This document shows positions 7,795-62,772 of a stretch of 64,000 nucleotides of DNA, piece by piece. Where the stretch lies: the sequence record LC788711.1; one strand, given 5' to 3'. The DNA is from Escherichia coli phage NG_S8. Below the pieces are notes generated by a model that was not told the DNA's origin, did no database searches, and saw only the letters and a program-made list of their open reading frames with translations. Every line of letters starts with the position of its first letter. Position 1 is the first letter of the stretch. The translations under genes were made by a program, and so were the position numbers.

Positions 7795-10185
7795 TTACAG
7801 GTTACAACCACCTGATGCACAACCTGCTGCTTCTTCACCAGCTCCACCACCATTTTCAGTGTTGAAGTTAGCGTAGTACCAAGTTTTCCAACCGTACTTA
7901 ACAGCAGTCATGAAATCACGAACTACTACTGGACCAGGAATGATTTCATTCTCAAACTTGGTGTAGTCATAGTACATATTCGTACTGATAGACTGACTGA
8001 AAAATTTCTGCATGGTTGCTACCCATTTGATCCACTCGATACGATCTACATCATAAGCCAGTTTATAGCTCATTAATGTATCCCAATCAGTTGCACCTGG
8101 AGCAATTGCAATTACTTTATTCACTGCACTACCCTTGATAGATACGATCTTACGAGGCGGTTCAATAGAGTTAGTAACACCTAGCAGTACAGAGGAACTT
8201 TCACCTGGCATCTGAGCAGTCAGAACAGAGTTACGCATACCATATTTCAGAATATCTGCACGCAGAGATTCCCAATCCATTTCTAGACCTACAGTTACCA
8301 GTTCATCAACAGTTTTCTTATACGTGTCGATTACCAGAGTTCCTTGTGAAGGCTTAGTACGATTAAACCAGTCACATGCACCCTGTTCTTTGGCCAGACG
8401 TACAGAGGCTTTGTGCAGGAAGTAGGACAGCTTTTCAGCTTCACGGTGAATCCAGTTACGTGCTTCAACACCTTCGTAAGCCAAACCTTCTGCTGCCATT
8501 GCACCTGCTGCGTTCATCAGACCAATACCAACGTTACGACGTTTCTTAGCCGTGTATTCCATAGTTGGGAATGGATAATCCTGAATCTCGATGATTGTAT
8601 CAACGAATTTCAGAAGGATGTAGCAAGTTTTCTCCCATTCAGCCAGAGATTCCATGCGGCCTAGTACAACACCACCTAAGTTACACAGAGATACTTCACC
8701 AATATCTTCTGGACGCATATCGTCTAACTGATCTTGGGTTTTATACAGTTCCGTAATGTGATGGAATGGACGGGTTGGCTGAGTAATTTCAACACAAAGG
8801 TTGGTCATACGAATCGGGTCAAGGAAGTTACCATGACGGTTAGATTCACCAATGTGATGAGCATACATACGCCCCGTTTCCATACGGATACGCAACCAAG
8901 TATCTAGGATTTCTTTTGCAGAGATTCTAGGAGCTGCTGGAATTGTTTTTCCTTCGTGGTCGATCTTTGTAAGAGATGCCACACGTTTCTCCGCTGCCAC
9001 GTAGATTTCTTCAAACTTAGCCTCATCTTCGCCATAAAACGCTTCATGAACTTCTGGTGCGTAGAAATAGGACATTAGCGTAATATCTTCGCTTTTCAGG
9101 TAACGTTTTAACAGAAGGTTGTTAAAGCTCAGAGAGTAATCCATTTTATCGATTTTATTCTCGTCTGTAGCACGTTGTTGTTTAACCTGCATCAACTGAA
9201 TGATTTCAGGATCGAAGTATGGATAAGACACAGTAGCAGAACCGCCACGGGTTTGCTGAGTGTTAGCTTTTACTGAACGGTCAATGTGTCGATAATATGG
9301 CAGTTTTCCGGAATGCGGGAATGCCCCATTTCGCACCGGATCAGCAATTGATCGGCTTTCAAGATGATACCCGATTCCCGCTCTGGCTGCGACCATTTTG
9401 AAGACGATGTGCTCGGCTGTGTCGATTGAATCCAGCGTGTCAGTGGAATCCACGAGGCAACAACTAGCAAATCCACGGTCACTAGAGCGCAGGCCAACCA
9501 GTGGCGGCGTAGGAACGTTGATTTTGTGGAGCGACATTGCATTGTAGAGGTCGATTGCATCTAGAATTGTCCAGTTAGGTTGAGATAACATCGCCATTGC
9601 CATACCCATGTAGGCAAACTGCGGGGTTTCATAAATTTCACCAGTTGCAATATTACGACGAGAATACTTGTCGAAGAACTGTTTCAGTCCACCACTGGTG
9701 AATAAACGATCGCGATCATGATCAATAACTTGGTTCAGAGCGTCAAACTGATCATCGCTAATCCATGCACTCATGTCTTCCCAAGCGCCAACACGAACCA
9801 TATGATCGTGGAAGAAACGCAGAGAAGGTGGTTCGAAGGAATCATATAGGCGTTTACGCATCTGCGCAAGACGTAATTCCTTTGCTGGCACATCGTATGC
9901 TGGATTATCTTTGATAAGACCTTCAGCGGCTTTAATTAACGCATCCATTAGGGTATCGGAATCTACAACACCTTTAGGTAGAGTTTTTTGAGCAGACATA
10001 GTGATGGCTGACCAGCTCACATCAACTGTTTTGCAGCCATATACTGCCCAACCATTGAGTTTTTCAGGAGCAAAGTCTTCTACAGTACCGTCACGTTTAA
10101 TTACTTTTGTAATTCTAAAGTCCATTGCGGTTTCCTTTTTATAGTTCTCAGGATTTAGATAGTATTCTACTTTGTTTTGAGTCAT
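7795..10185 (-). CDS. nrdA: ribonucleotide reductase class Ia alpha subunit
   Basis: ATP-cone ITKVIKRDGTVEDF, C-terminal Cys pair (GCASGGC), 796 aa; true start may be the internal Met of MDFRITKV. Confidence 0.95.
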   Translation of the reverse strand: MTQNKVEYYLNPENYKKETAMDFRITKVIKRDGTVEDFAPEKLNGWAVYGCKTVDVSWSAITMSAQKTLPKGVVDSDTLMDALIKAAEGLIKDNPAYDVPAKELRLAQMRKRLYDSFEPPSLRFFHDHMVRVGAWEDMSAWISDDQFDALNQVIDHDRDRLFTSGGLKQFFDKYSRRNIATGEIYETPQFAYMGMAMAMLSQPNWTILDAIDLYNAMSLHKINVPTPPLVGLRSSDRGFASCCLVDSTDTLDSIDTAEHIVFKMVAARAGIGYHLESRSIADPVRNGAFPHSGKLPYYRHIDRSVKANTQQTRGGSATVSYPYFDPEIIQLMQVKQQRATDENKIDKMDYSLSFNNLLLKRYLKSEDITLMSYFYAPEVHEAFYGEDEAKFEEIYVAAEKRVASLTKIDHEGKTIPAAPRISAKEILDTWLRIRMETGRMYAHHIGESNRHGNFLDPIRMTNLCVEITQPTRPFHHITELYKTQDQLDDMRPEDIGEVSLCNLGGVVLGRMESLAEWEKTCYILLKFVDTIIEIQDYPFPTMEYTAKKRRNVGIGLMNAAGAMAAEGLAYEGVEARNWIHREAEKLSYFLHKASVRLAKEQGACDWFNRTKPSQGTLVIDTYKKTVDELVTVGLEMDWESLRADILKYGMRNSVLTAQMPGESSSVLLGVTNSIEPPRKIVSIKGSAVNKVIAIAPGATDWDTLMSYKLAYDVDRIEWIKWVATMQKFFSQSISTNMYYDYTKFENEIIPGPVVVRDFMTAVKYGWKTWYYANFNTENGGGAGEEAAGCASGGCNL

Positions 10186-33781: not shown

Positions 33782-34759
33782 ATGAGAATACTATTTAGTG
33801 CTGATCATCATATCAAATTAGGACAAGATAAAGTTCCAAAGGAATGGCAGAAGCGTCGCTTCCTGATGCTAGGAGAACGGTTAAATGACGTATTCCATAA
33901 TCATAACTGTGATCTGCATATTGCTGGTGGTGATATTCTTGATGTTGCCGACCCATCGTCGGAAGAAATAGAACTTCTTGAACAGTTCATGTCAAGACTT
34001 GACCATCCAGGCAAGATCTTCACAGGGAACCATGAAATGTTAACTAAAACTATTTCATGTCTGTATCACTATGCAGGAGTTATTAATAAAGTAACAAACG
34101 GAAATTGGGAAGTCATTACTAAACCATATCGTTCTCCTGAATTTGATATTGTCCCTTATGATGAGATCCACAAACCAAAGTGGAAACCATCTGAGTCAAA
34201 ACTATGTTTCACGCATGTTCGTGGTGAAATCCCTCCACATGTAAAACCAGAGATTGATCTAACGAGGTATAACTGTTATGACACTGTAATTGCTGGCGAT
34301 TTACATTCTTATACTAATAGTCAAACTGTTGGTTCTACTAGACTTCTTTATCCAGGATCTCCATTAACTACATCGTTCCACAGAGAACGCACAAAAGGTA
34401 CAAATGGTTGTTTTATCATTGATACCGACACATTAAAAGTAGAATGGATTGAACTCGGTGACTTACCACAGCTGATTCGTAAAACAATCGGAGTTGGTGA
34501 GGAAATGGAGCCTAGTGACTATGACCGTGTAATTTATGAAGTCACTGGTGACGTCGTTCAGTTAAAGTCTATTAAAGATTCCGATCTCTTAGATAAAAAG
34601 ATTAACCATCGAGTTACTAAAGATGCTAAGTTAAATCTTGTTGATCTTGATATGTTAGGCGAACTTGAACTTTACTTCCGTGAAGTTGAAAAGCTGTCTC
34701 AAGACGACATTGATAGAATCTTAGCTAGAGCTGCTAAATATGTCAAAGATTATAATTAA
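33782..34759 (+). CDS. SbcD/Mre11-like nuclease (T5 D12-like)
   Basis: Calcineurin-like phosphoesterase motifs ILFSADHH, GGDILD, GNHE; 325 aa. Confidence 0.9.
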   Translation: MRILFSADHHIKLGQDKVPKEWQKRRFLMLGERLNDVFHNHNCDLHIAGGDILDVADPSSEEIELLEQFMSRLDHPGKIFTGNHEMLTKTISCLYHYAGVINKVTNGNWEVITKPYRSPEFDIVPYDEIHKPKWKPSESKLCFTHVRGEIPPHVKPEIDLTRYNCYDTVIAGDLHSYTNSQTVGSTRLLYPGSPLTTSFHRERTKGTNGCFIIDTDTLKVEWIELGDLPQLIRKTIGVGEEMEPSDYDRVIYEVTGDVVQLKSIKDSDLLDKKINHRVTKDAKLNLVDLDMLGELELYFREVEKLSQDDIDRILARAAKYVKDYN

Positions 34760-36578
34760 GACACTAAAATTCAGCAACGTTATGTCTTACGGTAAGGATA
34801 TTGTAATTCATTTCGATAAGAATCCAGTTACTCAGTTAATCGGAGGAAACGGTCTAGGGAAGTCCACTATTGCTACTGTTATTGAGGAATTGTTTTATAA
34901 CAAGAACTCACGTGGTATCAAGAAGGACGCCCTATTCTCTTGGGGTTCTCCGAAGAAAGAGTACGATATGCACGCTTACTTCTCGAAAGATGAAGATGAG
35001 TATGAGTTGCATAAAGTAGTTAAATCAACTGCTAAGGTTACACTGATTAAGAATGGAGAAGATATCAGTGGACACACAGCAACTCAAACGTATAAGATGA
35101 TTGAAGAGATTATGGGTGGTGACTTCCAAACATTCACTAAACTGATCTATCAATCTGTAGGTTCCAACCTAGACTTCCTCAAAGCAACTGATGCGACACG
35201 TAAAGCTTTTCTTGTTAATCTGTTCAATCAGGAACAGTATAAAGAGATGTCAGAAACTATTAAGGCTGATCGTAAAGAAGTGGCAAGTACGTTAAGTAAC
35301 TTGCAAGGCCAGATGGCCGTAATTACGAAGATCCTCAATGGAAAAGGTAATCTCGGAAGTTTACAAGAGCCAGTTGAAGTTCCAGAGTTTGATGAAGAAC
35401 CGTTAGCACAAGAACTTACTGAGTCGAAAATTAAGGCGGCATTAGCCAAATCACAAGAGGCTAATATTACTAAACTCCGTAATTTGGACAAAGCTGTACA
35501 AGTTGCCGAACAATCTTTCGAGCCTTTCAAAAATTTCCCTGCGCCCACTGACCAATCTGAAGAGATCTCAAGTGTTACGCGTGACCTAACGATTGTTACC
35601 TCACGTGCGGGAGAAGTCAAGAAACGTTATCAGAAGTTCAAGCAAGAGGCTTCAAATACTGAATGTCCTACTTGTGGCACTCATCTTGATACAACTGCTG
35701 CTCAAAAAGCAATGGATATGGCTAGAACAGAGTATGATCCTCTATTTAAAGAGAAGCAATCTCTTGAAGCTACGCTAGAGCAGTTGAAGAAAGAACAAGT
35801 CGAGTACACTGCGTATACTAGAGCTAAGGATGCTTTGGATAAGGCAATAGCAGCTAGGGACGAGTTCAAAAATTCAATGAGTGATGCTTCTTTTGAAGAA
35901 CTCAATGTGCAAATCCTACAGGTGCAAATCCGACAATTAGAACAGGAAATCGCAGATGGACGTTCTAAAGTTGCAATTGCCAAAGAGCATAATGCAAATG
36001 TCGAGTTAGCCAATGCAAAGTATAAAGCGAAACTAGAACAGATTGAGAAAGCTGAGGCAGAAATGTCTGAGATAACGTCCAAACTGGATGGAGTATCAGA
36101 AGCTGTCGCTGATCTTGATATTCTGATAGCTGCATTGAAAAATCTGGTAGGATATAAACTAGAGCATAGTGTGAAAGTATTTGAGGAATTGATTAATAAA
36201 TATCTTTCTATTATGACTGGTGGTAAGTTCGCACTTGGATTTGAGCTTGATGAAACTAAATTACAAGTAGTAATCTTCAATGATGGAAACCGTACCAGTA
36301 TGGAGAACTGCTCTACTGGTCAGCAGAGTAGAATTAACCTAGCAACTCTGTTGGCAATTCGAATGCTGTTAACATCTATCAGCAAAGTTAATATTAATCT
36401 TCTATTCCTTGACGAAGTTATTAGCTTTATTGATACGAAAGGACTTGATACTCTTGTTGAACTATTAAATGAGGAAGATAGTCTGAACTCTATCATTGTT
36501 TCTCATGGGCATACGCATCCATTAGCCCATAAGATTACTGTCAAAAAAGATGCAGAAGGATTTTCCTACTTAGAATAA
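34740..36578 (+). CDS. SbcC/Rad50-like ATPase (T5 D13-like)
   Basis: Walker A GGNGLGKST, long coiled-coil with CPTCG zinc hook, Walker B/D-loop LLFLDEVISFID; 612 aa. Confidence 0.9.
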   Translation: MSKIIIKTLKFSNVMSYGKDIVIHFDKNPVTQLIGGNGLGKSTIATVIEELFYNKNSRGIKKDALFSWGSPKKEYDMHAYFSKDEDEYELHKVVKSTAKVTLIKNGEDISGHTATQTYKMIEEIMGGDFQTFTKLIYQSVGSNLDFLKATDATRKAFLVNLFNQEQYKEMSETIKADRKEVASTLSNLQGQMAVITKILNGKGNLGSLQEPVEVPEFDEEPLAQELTESKIKAALAKSQEANITKLRNLDKAVQVAEQSFEPFKNFPAPTDQSEEISSVTRDLTIVTSRAGEVKKRYQKFKQEASNTECPTCGTHLDTTAAQKAMDMARTEYDPLFKEKQSLEATLEQLKKEQVEYTAYTRAKDALDKAIAARDEFKNSMSDASFEELNVQILQVQIRQLEQEIADGRSKVAIAKEHNANVELANAKYKAKLEQIEKAEAEMSEITSKLDGVSEAVADLDILIAALKNLVGYKLEHSVKVFEELINKYLSIMTGGKFALGFELDETKLQVVIFNDGNRTSMENCSTGQQSRINLATLLAIRMLLTSISKVNINLLFLDEVISFIDTKGLDTLVELLNEEDSLNSIIVSHGHTHPLAHKITVKKDAEGFSYLE

Positions 36579-58725: not shown

Positions 58726-59208
58726 TTAAACCTCCGGCGCAGGGTTGATAGTTGTTACACACTCATTAGAAGTAATGGAAGTAGATTTACTATCCGTTAC
58801 AACAACTTTGTAAGTACCAGAGTCTTCTGCAGCAGCTGTAGCTTTGTTGAAATTAGGGCCAGTAACACCACTTAGTGGAGAACCGTCTTTAGTCCAAGCA
58901 TAAGTATATGGTGCAGTACCACCAGTAACTGTTACGCCCAGATTAATTGCTGCACCAGTATCAACAGCTAGAGTTTTAGCCAGATTCTTCGTGAAAGCTA
59001 GAGCCGGAACAACCGGAACAGTAACTTCGTATGCTTCTTTGAACTTATTCCAAACCTTGCGGTTGGTATGTGCAGTGGTCATTCCAAACTCTTTACGTAG
59101 AGTAGCGTAGTTTGGAACGAACTTGTGTGCTGCAACCGTAGCAAAGAAGATATGAGATTCTGGCAGCTTTTCACCAAAAATGGCCTTTAGACCATCATAA
59201 TCAATCAT
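58726..59208 (-). CDS. capsid decoration protein with Ig-like domain (T5 pb10-like)
   Basis: 160 aa; C-terminal Ig-like segment (GTAPYTYAWTKDGSPL...SGTYKVVVTD). Confidence 0.7.
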   Translation of the reverse strand: MIDYDGLKAIFGEKLPESHIFFATVAAHKFVPNYATLRKEFGMTTAHTNRKVWNKFKEAYEVTVPVVPALAFTKNLAKTLAVDTGAAINLGVTVTGGTAPYTYAWTKDGSPLSGVTGPNFNKATAAAEDSGTYKVVVTDSKSTSITSNECVTTINPAPEV

Positions 59209-60422
59209 TCTTTATCCCCATCGGCAGTGCCTTGCGGTCTACCACCTTCTTGACCAGATACACCTGTTGCAGAACCAGCAACGTTAGCAGGAATACGAAT
59301 CTTATTCATCTGCTCATCATCTAAAGGTTCAAGGTTAAGCTCTTCACGAGCCTCGTTACCAGTCATGATACCGTTATTAACCAAAGAGGTTAAATGTTTA
59401 GCCTCAGCTTCTTTATCTGGCGTCAGTGCAGCTACTTCCTTAGTATTAGGAGTAACCTTGTAGCCAAAGAAGAAAGTAAGAGAACTAGTCAGCTTGTTCA
59501 GCATAGGAATGATAGTCATGTAATAGAACAATTCGATGTTTGGTCGAATGTTAGCATTATTACCACCATCAAGTAACACTTGCGGAACACCAAAGGCAAG
59601 ACAGATGGATTTATTAAATCCTTCGATATCTTCCTTGAAGTCTAGATCTTTAAAAGAGGATATTTGGGAGTACGGTTTTGCTTTCATACCACCATCTAGA
59701 ATCAGGACAGTAGACTGACCAGTACTAGGATTATAATCGAGTTGTAATTCTTCTTGTTTACGCTCACGCAATTTCTTGTTCAGGATTTCATCCGTCTCAA
59801 GAATAAGACCAATCACAGTGCCGTTATCGAGGAACTTCTCTTTAAAGTTAAGCATTTTAGAACGCTTCTCAAGAGAGTCAATAACTGTAGCAACACGAGA
59901 TTGTCCAGAAATTTGGGAGTTTGTGCCACACACGTAACTGTTATCCTTTATAAAGATAATCTCATCTACGCGATAGTCTATCTGGTTATTAAATATGAAT
60001 TTTTTGATAAACTTATTGGCATCTGCCTCTACTTGCATTAGTGCAGCAGGGACATGGTAAAGTGCTGTGCCATCCCAATAGATGTATGCACAACCCTCAA
60101 AAAGTAGGTCAGTGACTACAAGTCTACGGAATGTGCTTATATCCATGAATGGATTAGGTCGTACATTTAAGAGAGTGTCTAGAGTCTTTGCCTTGACGCC
60201 ATTAGCGTACGTGACAATATTATATTTATCTCCGACAGTATAAGAACACTCCGCCGCACTATCGATAACCATGTTAGCAGTTCGGTTGAGAATCTCAATC
60301 TTACTGTAGGCTTGTCCAGTGGTAAATGGCTTACGGTTAGTGCGATGACTAACTGGTTCCATGTCTCTTATAATACGTTGACCCGGATTTAGCTTTTCAG
60401 TAATCCAGCTTTTTAAACCCAT
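59205..60422 (-). CDS. portal protein (T5 pb7-like)
   Basis: 405 aa; follows the terminase and HNH genes. Confidence 0.8.
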   Translation of the reverse strand: MGLKSWITEKLNPGQRIIRDMEPVSHRTNRKPFTTGQAYSKIEILNRTANMVIDSAAECSYTVGDKYNIVTYANGVKAKTLDTLLNVRPNPFMDISTFRRLVVTDLLFEGCAYIYWDGTALYHVPAALMQVEADANKFIKKFIFNNQIDYRVDEIIFIKDNSYVCGTNSQISGQSRVATVIDSLEKRSKMLNFKEKFLDNGTVIGLILETDEILNKKLRERKQEELQLDYNPSTGQSTVLILDGGMKAKPYSQISSFKDLDFKEDIEGFNKSICLAFGVPQVLLDGGNNANIRPNIELFYYMTIIPMLNKLTSSLTFFFGYKVTPNTKEVAALTPDKEAEAKHLTSLVNNGIMTGNEAREELNLEPLDDEQMNKIRIPANVAGSATGVSGQEGGRPQGTADGDKE

Positions 60423-60946
60423 TATAAGAACCTTGCGAATCCTGATTTAGTTTCAGTCTTGACTTGTGTCTTTTCTTGAGGATTCTGTAGCTTTTCCTTT
60501 TGTTTAAGAACCCATGCCTTCTGCTTATTAGCAGAAAAAAGGGGAGGTTCCTTAGTGTACACCTTATGTAATAGTTGGTGATGGTGGACACAAAGGGTAA
60601 CAGTGTCATCTACTAGCTCATGCCTATATCTTTCATAGAATGCCGTCCTATTTGAGAGGACTGTTTCTTCGTCAGTGAAATCCAATTGGAGTTCTTTAGC
60701 AAATTTTTTAACTAGTAGAGACACTGTATGGTAATGATGAAGCTCTAATTCTTCACCACAACCACAGATTTCGCAGCGATCGGCTTTTTTATATTGACTT
60801 TTTATACCGTCTCGCATGAGTGATATAGCATCACGTTTATATTTTACATTTCCTGCCACAGTATTCTCCTCAACTGTATGAATATAGTATACATAATCAT
60901 GTCGAATTTGTAAAGGGGATTTTAAAATGCAGGAATGGGATACCAA
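60422..60946 (-). CDS. HNH endonuclease
   Basis: CEICGCGEELELHHYH...N...LCVHHHQLLH: HNH motif with Zn-binding Cys/His pairs; 174 aa. Confidence 0.8.
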   Translation of the reverse strand: MVSHSCILKSPLQIRHDYVYYIHTVEENTVAGNVKYKRDAISLMRDGIKSQYKKADRCEICGCGEELELHHYHTVSLLVKKFAKELQLDFTDEETVLSNRTAFYERYRHELVDDTVTLCVHHHQLLHKVYTKEPPLFSANKQKAWVLKQKEKLQNPQEKTQVKTETKSGFARFL

Positions 60947-60973
60947 CTGAGTAGTATCCCATCCTATACTTAT

Positions 60974-62290
60974 TTATTTCCCACGGGAAATTGAGTAAAT
61001 TCCATAACGCAGTGCGTCACAAAGGTGAGAGTTTGCATCATGACGTGGTTTTTCACGTGATAATTTCTCTTCGCCTTCCTGGAAGTCCCACTTGTAGTTC
61101 GCTAGGGCGTGGATCAATGAGGTACATGAAGCATCTACGATAATCTTACCTTGCTGGAACAGTGCTTGTAGGCATGCCAGACCATCTAGGACAGATTTCT
61201 TAGCAGGAGCAGAAGCGATTTCATGTTCATATGCTAAGTCCTGACGGAACTGAGCAGCAGCGGAGTCTACAAATATACGATCAACATTATAACGATCTAT
61301 GCAGTGTTGGATATAAGCAGCGTGTTGAGCTGTAGTCTTTTCAGCTTGCTGATATTCTTCCAGTACGTAATAAACATCAGTATCATAGTGATACTTGATA
61401 GTAAGAACTGCTGTAGGGTCACGATAACCAACGTCGATACCAAGTAATGTTTCGAAAGCCTCATCATCTTTAAAGAAGTGGCGCATACCTTTGAGGTCTT
61501 TAACATGTTCGATAGCATTGAAGGTGTCAAAGATCTGACCTTCGAATACAGAGAAGTCAGCCTCATATTCTTGACGGAAGTAGTTTTTACTAACAGTACG
61601 ACGCGCTTCTTCGATATCGTTCAGATCAGCACGTGGGTTATCACGATATGTACCATGAATAGATACCCAGTTAGGTAGAGTTTCGTTAAATCCTTTCTCA
61701 TAGAACTCTTTAAACCAGTTACCACCACGAGGTGTGGAAATAAACAGAGCTTTAGAGTTTGGCTTATCTAGAGTAGGACGTAACTGAATATCGAAAGCTG
61801 CACCACCAACGTCGGAAATCGCTGCTTCGTCAAAAATGATGAAGTCATATGAACGACCAACCGCGGAGTCAGCCTGCGCCGCAGAAGCCAGCTTAAAGAG
61901 AGAACCATTCGCTAGTTCAATCTCTTTATCTTTTGCGTTCTCACGTTCAGTCTGTAATCCATACTTCTTAATAAGACCACGAATCTGTGACCAACCTATG
62001 TTAGCCAGTGAGTAGTTAGGTGCAACTACCAGCACCTTCACATTGGGTTCCAGAAGTTTTAGGAACCCAAGTGTATATGCGATGAATGACTTACCTACAC
62101 GACGTGATACACATGCAGTCACGAAGCGGTGTCTTGGGTCTCCCAGCGCATTAATGATTGCAATCTGAGGGGCATTAGGTGTAATTCCCTCTTGAGCTAG
62201 AATGCTAGAGACTGGCAGACGGAAGAATCGTTTGTCAATACCAAAGTCAATAACATCTGTGGTGTTAATATAGTCTCTAGAGACTTTCAT
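60974..62290 (-). CDS. terL: terminase large subunit
   Basis: Walker A RRVGKSF, Walker B DFIIFDEAA, C-terminal nuclease region; 438 aa, the length I recall for T5 TerL. Confidence 0.9.
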   Translation of the reverse strand: MKVSRDYINTTDVIDFGIDKRFFRLPVSSILAQEGITPNAPQIAIINALGDPRHRFVTACVSRRVGKSFIAYTLGFLKLLEPNVKVLVVAPNYSLANIGWSQIRGLIKKYGLQTERENAKDKEIELANGSLFKLASAAQADSAVGRSYDFIIFDEAAISDVGGAAFDIQLRPTLDKPNSKALFISTPRGGNWFKEFYEKGFNETLPNWVSIHGTYRDNPRADLNDIEEARRTVSKNYFRQEYEADFSVFEGQIFDTFNAIEHVKDLKGMRHFFKDDEAFETLLGIDVGYRDPTAVLTIKYHYDTDVYYVLEEYQQAEKTTAQHAAYIQHCIDRYNVDRIFVDSAAAQFRQDLAYEHEIASAPAKKSVLDGLACLQALFQQGKIIVDASCTSLIHALANYKWDFQEGEEKLSREKPRHDANSHLCDALRYGIYSISRGK

Positions 62291-62772
62291 TATCTCTTAC
62301 CTCCTCCTGCTAGAGCGGTAATAAGATTCATATAGTTTTCGTCACCACTTCCAGCAATAATATTATTCTGAATATTAGTCTGGTTAGCCGGAGTACGGGC
62401 TGCTGCCTTCACTTTCTCCAGTTCTACCATCATTTTCATTTCTTCCATCTTCATCTTGTGCGCCTTCCAGAGAATATCCATGATATCCTGGTCAGAACCC
62501 ATGCCAGTTTCTTCGAGTTCTTCCAACTTGCGCTTGATAACTTCATCAAGAACTCCGAATAAGCGGTCACGATTACGGAAGCCGCTTTCCATAAAGATAT
62601 CGTTAAGATAGTTTTTAACTTCCCCACGATTCATTATATCACGGAATGCAATCTCGGACATTCCAAGACTACGAGCGGCGGCAGGAACATCACTACCGCA
62701 CTGTAAATAGGCTTCAATAACATCCATGCCTTCGGGAGACATGAGATCGGGAACTAATACATCATTTGCCAT
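62290..62772 (-). CDS. putative terminase small subunit
   Basis: 160 aa; HTH-like [17 protein letters not shown]; immediately upstream of and coupled to terL. Confidence 0.65.

What the first reader, a model, noticed from the sequence alone, without database searches (positions are those of the whole stretch)
60422..60946. HNH endonuclease wedged between portal and large terminase genes
A complete HNH motif with Cys/His zinc ligands sits between terL and the portal gene and overlaps the portal start. In several phages a terminase-adjacent HNH protein is needed for genome end processing. Alternatively it is a free-standing homing endonuclease. T5 DNA is known to carry site-specific single-strand nicks, so a nicking role is also possible.
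Basis: partly seen in the sequence, partly recalled or inferred. Interest (0 to 1): 0.4.

Follow-up and report, generated by a model that had tools for sequence, protein, structure and literature searches.

The report
T5 SciA genome-nicking endonuclease orthologue
The small gene between the large terminase and portal genes is the counterpart of phage T5's SciA, a known enzyme whose structure has been solved and which cuts one DNA strand at GCGC sites, so the finding is real but not new.

Summary
The window comes from a T5-like phage (Demerecviridae, Epseptimavirus; 99.8% identical to Salmonella phage BSP22A over this locus). The ORF exists, but its real start is almost certainly the GTG at 60859 (145 aa, GAGGAG ribosome-binding site), not the TTG at 60946. 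Its stop shares one base with the portal ATG (TAATG).

The protein is 81% identical over its full length to T5 SciA. Crystal structures of T5 SciA on GCGC DNA are public (PDB 9QGV and 9QGX, released 2026-03-25). The catalytic His42 and the zinc ligands Cys29, Cys32, Cys90 and His93 are invariant in the family.

It is a core gene, not a mobile one: 900 phage records carry it and 904 carry the neighbouring portal. The terL–sciA–portal order holds in Vibrio T5-like phages at about 47% identity. The mobile element at this locus is a different, GIY-YIG-like gene (T5p150). T5 has it and this window does not.

The window also holds the counterpart of T5's major 64.8% nick site (G^GCGCAGG, minus strand, 35538–35545). 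That site is kept in all 28 close relatives examined and in T5, Salmonella phage GSW6 and Klebsiella phage Sugarland.

The packaging-cofactor and homing readings do not. Already known; low interest.

The parts
60422..60859 (-). sciA orthologue: 145-aa divergent HNH-type, zinc-finger, site-specific nicking endonuclease (GTG start, TAA stop)
   Evidence: 81% identity over 145/145 residues to the T5 SciA crystal construct. A profile of the family matches PDB 9qgv/9qgx at E 7e-66. The AF2 model (pLDDT 85) superposes on 9qgv with TM 0.97 and rmsd 1.2. Annotated 'nicking endonuclease' or 'sciA' in close relatives.
60860..60946 (-). Non-coding 5' extension of the mechanical ORF. It includes the RBS GAGGAG (60871-60866) and a promoter-like TTTACA-17-TATACT site (60914-60886).
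   Evidence: Sequence read and promoter scan. The block is conserved with T5, where it lies upstream of the inserted T5p150 gene. No homologue has this extension.
60933..60964 (-). Terminator-like hairpin (13 pairs) just after the terL stop
   Evidence: Conserved in T5.
60420..60424 (-). TAATG junction: the sciA stop and the portal start share one base, an arrangement that allows translational coupling
   Evidence: The same abutment is annotated in GreteKellenberger, DT571/2 and T5.
35538..35545 (-). Predicted major SciA target: 5'-G^GCGCAGG-3' on the minus strand, inside the D13 (SbcC-like) gene at 34740..36578(+). Nick expected between 35545 and 35544.
   Evidence: Pattern match. It aligns base for base with the T5 'major DNA single-chain interruption' annotated at AY543070 78573^78574, minus strand. 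All four distinct T5 major sites read R^GCGCRGG. The site is kept in all 28 close relatives examined, and in T5, GSW6 and Klebsiella phage Sugarland.
61873..61880 (-). Second minus-strand match, G^GCGCAGG, inside terL: a candidate additional (minor) nick site
   Evidence: An identical match lies at the same offset in T5 terL. T5 does not annotate it as a major nick, so this is inference only.
60974..62290 (-). Large terminase subunit (context)
   Evidence: Pfam Terminase_6N and Terminase_6C.
59205..60422 (-). Portal protein (context)
   Evidence: Pfam Phage_portal, 2e-51.
62290..62772 (-). Small terminase subunit. Its T5 counterpart was annotated 'probable sciB protein', involved in forming single-chain interruptions (context).

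Best explanation
This is the orthologue of phage T5 SciA, a late-expressed, 145-residue, zinc-stabilised nuclease of divergent HNH type. It recognises short GCGC-containing sites and cuts one strand, just 5' of GCGC (R^GCGCRGG read on the minus strand). This produces the fixed single-strand interruptions typical of virion DNA in T5-like phages.

Shown here: orthology to the structurally characterised T5 enzyme; conservation of the mutated catalytic His42 and of the Cys/His metal ligands; a conserved position between terL and the portal gene throughout the family; and the counterpart of a T5 major nick site in the window.

Inferred: that this particular phage's DNA is actually nicked at 35545/35544; that His42 acts as general base in a beta-beta-alpha-metal site; and that expression comes from the promoter-like site in the terL-sciA spacer or from read-through of the terS-terL transcript, with the portal gene translationally coupled downstream.
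For: Identity and structure:
- The window is a T5-like Epseptimavirus.
- The protein is 81% identical over its full length to the T5 SciA construct.
- PDB 9QGV and 9QGX are titled 'SciA(H42Q/H42A) endonuclease from Escherichia phage T5 in complex with 10 bp DNA (GCGC sequence)'.
- The AF2 model matches 9qgv at TM 0.97.
- C29, C32, H41, H42, C90, H93, H94 and H98 are invariant in 43 diverse homologues.
- Weaker fold matches are to HNH nucleases such as Cap5 and viral HNHc proteins, and one PHROG HNH family matches at 9e-6.

Distribution:
- The gene is in 900 phage records against 904 for the portal, with near-identical host breakdown.
- The gene order is kept in Vibrio phage D138.

Target:
- The T5 major nick annotated at 78573^78574 has an exact counterpart at window 35538-35545(-).
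- That site is conserved while neighbouring third codon positions vary.

Literature: T5 and BF23 carry nicks in one strand (PMC10644984). The genes sciA and sciB were mapped to the late region, and the major-nick consensus is R/GCGCRGG (PMC3517423). Nicks are introduced before encapsidation (PMC13250531).
Against: - I could not read a primary paper linking sciA genetically to this ORF or describing its biochemistry. The link rests on PDB entry titles, UniRef and GenBank names and homology.
- In the older T5 record AY692264 the gene is only 'hypothetical protein'.
- The 8-base consensus also occurs twice on the un-nicked strand of the window, and its total count (4) is not above chance (mean 2.0 in shuffles; 13 of 100 shuffles reach 4). 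The motif alone therefore neither proves nicking nor explains strand choice.
- No data show nicks in this phage's own DNA.
Confidence: 0.9

Rival explanations
1. A terminase-associated HNH cofactor (HK97 gp74 type) that stimulates terminase cleavage of concatemers and is needed to make genome ends.
For: It lies directly next to terL and is coupled to the portal gene. The T5 terS was annotated 'probable sciB', which hints at some link between nicking and the packaging machinery. Many phages encode an HNH next to terminase genes (abstract of PMC3592412).
Against: T5-type genomes end in ~10 kb direct terminal repeats, not cos ends. Viable mutants lacking nicks are reported (PMC3517423). There is no significant sequence match to canonical HNH families such as those of gp74-type proteins. 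The solved T5 protein is bound to internal GCGC nick-site DNA, not to end sequences.
Confidence: 0.05
2. A free-standing homing endonuclease that spreads by cutting genomes lacking it.
For: It is a small stand-alone nuclease gene in a phage family rich in homing HNH genes (T5 hegA-G; PMC10644984).
Against: It is present in essentially all T5-like genomes (900 records against 904 with the portal) at one fixed position. Divergence runs down to ~47% in the most distant relatives (Vibrio phages), where the portal reaches a similar ~51%. The truly patchy gene at this locus is the unrelated T5orf172/GIY-YIG-like T5p150, found in 158 records, with several copies per genome and a decayed remnant in DT571/2. 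The window lacks it.
Confidence: 0.02
3. A SciA-derived protein that has lost nicking activity in this lineage and serves only as a DNA-binding or structural partner.
For: No direct evidence of nicks in Epseptimavirus DNA was found here.
Against: All catalytic and metal-binding residues are intact, and the cognate site in D13 is retained.
Confidence: 0.03

Closest known systems
Phage T5 SciA nicking endonuclease (T5p149 / ORF142; PDB 9QGV, 9QGX; Pfam PF26848 as precomputed in the protein database)
   Same: Same length (145 aa), 81% identity, same invariant His/Cys residues, same predicted fold and same position between terL and the portal gene. The same R^GCGCRGG site lies at the orthologous place in D13.
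   Different: 28 substitutions, none at invariant positions. In T5 a GIY-YIG-like gene (T5p150) is inserted between the upstream promoter block and sciA; here the spacer is only 114 bp.
Canonical HNH (beta-beta-alpha-metal) nucleases with a CxxC...CxxH/C zinc finger
   Same: A CxxC ... HH ... CxxH ... H arrangement and a strand / strand+helix core. Weak fold and profile matches to HNH proteins.
   Different: No conserved Asn. A ~45-residue three-helix insert splits the hairpin. No Pfam or NCBIfam HNH model is significant.
HK97 gp74-type terminase-adjacent HNH packaging factors
   Same: A small metal-finger nuclease encoded next to the terminase genes.
   Different: This phage type packages genomes with long direct terminal repeats rather than cos ends. 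Nick-less mutants are reported viable. The target is internal GCGC sites.
Nicking systems of phiKMV-like and tf-like Pseudomonas phages
   Same: Site-specific, strand-specific nicks in virion DNA (PMC3517423).
   Different: Different consensus sequences (for example TACTGTGAC in tf). No relation between the enzymes was examined here.

Membership tests
T5 SciA nicking endonuclease family | Full-length sequence homology to T5 SciA | tested here: met
   117/145 identical, E 2e-90. Profile against PDB 9qgv/9qgx, E 7e-66.
T5 SciA nicking endonuclease family | Catalytic His42 (the residue mutated in the deposited structures) and the Cys/His metal ligands are present | tested here: met
   H41, H42, C29, C32, C90, H93 and H98 are invariant in 43 sequences and present in the window protein.
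T5 SciA nicking endonuclease family | Same three-dimensional fold as solved SciA | tested here: met
   AF2 model with pLDDT 85.4. Foldseek to 9qgv_A gives E 3e-16, TM 0.97 (normalised by target) and rmsd 1.2 A. This is a predicted structure, not an experimental one.
T5 SciA nicking endonuclease family | Conserved position between terL and the portal gene in Demerecviridae | tested here: met
T5 SciA nicking endonuclease family | Cognate R^GCGCRGG site on the nicked strand at the place of a known T5 nick | tested here: met
   Window 35538-35545(-) aligns with the T5 nick at 78573^78574. The site is conserved in relatives.
T5 SciA nicking endonuclease family | Demonstrated strand-specific nicking by this protein, or nicks in this phage's DNA | not testable with these tools
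   Needs nick mapping or an enzyme assay.
Canonical HNH endonuclease (Pfam HNH clan) | Significant match to an HNH family model | tested here: not met
   No Pfam hit at E<=0.01 for the protein. Across 43 members only sub-threshold hits appear, for example AI2M-like_HNH in 6 members at best 0.072. NCBIfam gives none. PHROG 8048 'HNH endonuclease' matches at 9e-6 over residues 26-99.
Canonical HNH endonuclease (Pfam HNH clan) | Conserved His ... Asn ... His triad | tested here: not met
   Both His positions are invariant, but there is no invariant or near-invariant Asn in the alignment.
Canonical HNH endonuclease (Pfam HNH clan) | Beta-beta-alpha-metal core with a zinc-finger scaffold | tested here: inconclusive
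   The predicted strands at 38-42 and 86-90 plus the helix at 91-101 carry the conserved residues. Fold matches to HNH proteins are weak: Cap5 at E~1, and viral HNH proteins at E 0.02-0.2.
HK97 gp74-type terminase cofactor HNH | Phage with cos-type ends, and a gene required for end formation | tested here: not met
   T5 and BF23 have ~10 kb direct terminal repeats. Nick-less mutants are viable according to PMC3517423. The requirement itself was not tested experimentally.
Free-standing homing endonuclease | Sporadic presence/absence among otherwise syntenic genomes | tested here: not met
   900 records with the gene against 904 with the portal. Compare T5p150: 158 records, multiple copies and a remnant.

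The most novel reading that the evidence does not exclude
The most novel reading not excluded is that SciA works in physical or kinetic coupling with the packaging machinery. GCGC is a palindrome, and the 8-base consensus also occurs on the un-nicked strand. Strand choice could therefore come from the direction in which terminase threads the DNA, rather than from sequence alone.

Three observations would fit this: the fixed position between terL and the portal gene, the one-base stop/start overlap with the portal gene, and the old annotation of terS as 'probable sciB'. This is speculation from context. The deposited SciA-DNA structures may already explain strand choice through the asymmetric flank (RGG).
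Probability: 0.12. Interest if true: 0.55.

Novelty: already known. Interest (0 to 1): 0.12.

Why it matters
It matters little as a discovery. The gene is a routine orthologue of a named enzyme with a solved structure, and many GenBank records already call it 'nicking endonuclease'.

Three practical points follow:
- **Annotation:** the correct start is 60859, and many close relatives still list the gene as 'hypothetical protein'.
- **Testable prediction:** a specific nick position (35545/35544, minus strand) can be checked in Epseptimavirus DNA.
- **Locus polymorphism:** the variable element at this locus is the GIY-YIG-like neighbour, not sciA.

According to the 2012 paper I could read (PMC3517423), the biological purpose of the T5 nicks was still unexplained. 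That question is not advanced here.

Tried and rejected
- **Family libraries.** Pfam and NCBIfam scans of the protein gave nothing. The local Pfam copy lacks PF26848, which the protein database lists for every homologue.
- **Literature.** Ten full-text searches found no primary paper on the identification or structure of T5 SciA (one search failed on term length). The 1979/1984 Rhoades papers and Zivanovic 2014 are not held. The T5 'nickase' papers that did turn up concern a different protein, the pre-early Ung-dependent gp015.
- **Motif statistics.** The R GCGC RGG count in the window is not above chance (4 against a mean of 2.0). GCGC itself is neither enriched nor depleted (63 observed, 69 expected). 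I therefore relied on positional orthology with annotated T5 nicks rather than on counts.
- **Family breadth.** A search of 1.84 billion cluster representatives gave only 163 hits, many of them fragments. The family is narrow, and I did not pursue the few distant hits.
- **Rejected readings.** Homing endonuclease, on distribution. Terminase cofactor, on genome-end type and reported viability of nick-less mutants.

Full report
**What is there.** ORF listing gives a 174-aa minus-strand ORF at 60422..60946 with a TTG start. It lies between a 438-aa protein (60974..62290) and a 405-aa protein (59205..60422). Pfam identifies these as a large terminase (Terminase_6N and Terminase_6C) and a portal protein (Phage_portal, 2e-51). 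The ORF itself has no Pfam hit. Megablast places the locus in T5-like phages of the genus Epseptimavirus: 99.8% to Salmonella phage BSP22A, with 447 matching records. Several of those records call the middle gene 'nicking endonuclease' or 'putative nicking site-specific endonuclease'. Phage DT571/2 names it 'sciA ... (T5p149, ORF142)'.

**Gene limits.** Annotated homologues are 438 nt. All 43 aligned homologues begin M-A-x-N, as does the crystallised T5 protein. In the window this start is the GTG at 60859-60857, with GAGGAG at 60871-60866.
- The mechanical extension to 60946 runs over a promoter-like site (TTTACA-17-TATACT, 60914-60886) and a 13-pair hairpin (60964-60933) that follows the terL stop.
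- Both elements are conserved in T5.
- The TAA stop and the portal ATG share base 60422, reading TAATG.

**What the protein is.** A profile of 43 homologues matches exactly two PDB sequences, 9qgv_A and 9qgx_A, both named 'Nicking endonuclease', at E 7e-66. Foldseek gives their titles as 'SciA(H42Q)/(H42A) endonuclease from Escherichia phage T5 in complex with 10 bp DNA (GCGC sequence 2/1)', released 2026-03-25.
- The window protein is 81% identical to that construct over all 145 residues.
- An AlphaFold2 model (pLDDT 85.4) superposes on 9qgv at TM 0.97 and rmsd 1.2 Å.
- Invariant residues include C29, C32, H41, H42, C90, H93, H94 and H98. H42 is the residue mutated in the deposited structures.

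The layout is CxxC, then a strand carrying HH, then three helices of about 45 residues, then a strand, CxxH and a helix ending in H98. This is an HNH-like ββα-metal arrangement, but a divergent one:
- No Asn is conserved.
- No Pfam or NCBIfam HNH model is significant.
- One PHROG HNH family matches at 9e-6.
- Fold matches to other HNH nucleases, such as Cap5 and viral HNHc proteins, are weak.

**Core gene or mobile gene?** tblastn finds the protein in 900 phage records and the adjacent portal in 904. The host breakdown is nearly identical: Vibrio 356/356, Salmonella 267/268, Escherichia 129/129, Klebsiella 82/81, Proteus 10/10. In Vibrio phage D138, at about 47% identity, the order terL–homologue–portal is unchanged. 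This is the pattern of a vertically inherited core gene, so the homing-endonuclease reading fails.

The polymorphism at this locus belongs to another gene. T5 carries T5p150 between the conserved promoter block and sciA. It is a 277-aa protein with T5orf172/MUG113 (GIY-YIG-like) and treble-clef zinc-finger domains. It occurs in only 158 records, often in several copies, and survives as a remnant in DT571/2. The window lacks it, and its terL–sciA spacer is 114 bp.

**Target sites.** The T5 record AY543070 annotates major single-chain interruptions on the minus strand at 9748^9749, 22336^22337, 39746^39747 and 78573^78574. Read on the minus strand, all four are R^GCGCRGG(G/C). This agrees with the consensus quoted in PMC3517423.

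The window has four matches to RGCGCRGG, two on each strand. That count is not above chance: the shuffle mean is 2.0, and 13 of 100 shuffles reach 4.
- The minus-strand match at 35538-35545 lies in the D13 (SbcC-like) gene and aligns base for base with the T5 64.8% nick. It is retained in all 28 close relatives examined, and in T5, GSW6 and Klebsiella phage Sugarland, while neighbouring third codon positions vary.
- The other minus-strand match, in terL at 61873-61880, is also present at the same offset in T5. T5 does not annotate it as a major nick.
- Of the two plus-strand matches, the one at 58736 has no counterpart in the T5 segment examined. The one at 9486 was not compared with T5.

The window therefore encodes both the enzyme and at least one conserved cognate site. 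As PMC3517423 already noted, the short consensus alone does not explain why only one strand is cut.

**Mechanism and rivals.** The best-supported account is as follows. SciA is made late. It binds GCGC-containing sites with an asymmetric flank and uses the His42 ββα-metal site to hydrolyse one strand 5' of GCGC. This gives the fixed nicks found in packaged DNA.

The literature I could read supports the outline:
- T5 and BF23 virion DNA carries nicks in one strand (PMC10644984).
- sciA and sciB were mapped to the late region, and nick-less mutants are viable (PMC3517423).
- Nicks are introduced before encapsidation (PMC13250531).

The terminase-cofactor rival is disfavoured for three reasons. 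T5-type genomes have ~10 kb direct terminal repeats rather than cos ends. Nick-less mutants are viable. The solved complexes contain nick-site DNA.

I found no primary paper describing the assignment of sciA to this ORF or the structures. That link therefore rests on PDB titles, database names and homology.

**Novelty.** Already known. The family is narrow, with 163 cluster representatives among 1.84 billion, but it is named, and the T5 enzyme's structure has been solved. The only open angle is how strand specificity and any coupling to packaging arise. The old annotation of terS as 'probable sciB' and the tight terL–sciA–portal arrangement leave room for a packaging-coupled model, which I rate as unlikely and untested.

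Noticed in passing
window 61873-61880 (-), inside terL: A second minus-strand match to the T5 nick consensus (G^GCGCAGG). It sits at exactly the same offset in T5 terL (L004 6476-6483) but is not among T5's annotated major nicks. It could be a minor nick site.
   Followed up: partly
window 9486-9493 (+) and 58736-58743 (+): The same 8-base consensus occurs twice on the strand that is not nicked in T5. The 58736 copy has no counterpart in the T5 segment examined; the 9486 copy was not compared. The short motif alone cannot explain strand specificity.
   Followed up: partly
window 60860-60973; T5 locus L004 4732-5565: T5 carries a 277-aa T5orf172/MUG113 (GIY-YIG-like) protein with a treble-clef zinc finger (T5p150), inserted between the conserved promoter block and sciA. 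The window lacks it. It is patchy across T5-like phages (158 records, multiple copies, a remnant in DT571/2), as expected of a homing element.
   Followed up: yes
window 60933-60964 (-) and 60886-60914 (-): A 13-pair terminator-like hairpin after terL is followed by a good sigma-70-like promoter (TTTACA-17-TATACT) ahead of sciA. Both are conserved in T5. This suggests the sciA-portal-head genes can be transcribed separately from terS-terL.
   Followed up: partly
window 35580-35605 (+), in D13: A block GAGTGTTACGCGTGACCTAACG about 40 bases from the nick site is conserved in T5 and GSW6, and differs at one base in Klebsiella phage Sugarland, although surrounding sequence diverges. It may simply reflect protein constraint.
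   Followed up: no
protein P0092 (database hit, not in the window): A 117-aa 'PhoH family protein, partial [Enterococcus faecalis]' on a 351-nt contig contains SciA residues 8-67. It is probably a chimeric or contaminant assembly.
   Followed up: no
UniProt B2I4K2 (Escherichia phage Eps7): The EPS7 entry for this gene is a 100-aa protein that is 100% identical to the window protein over the aligned part, so EPS7's annotation appears truncated. Many close relatives still list the gene as 'hypothetical protein'.
   Followed up: no
window 1-64000: ARAGORN finds no tRNA genes, so the T5-type tRNA cluster lies outside this window.
   Followed up: no
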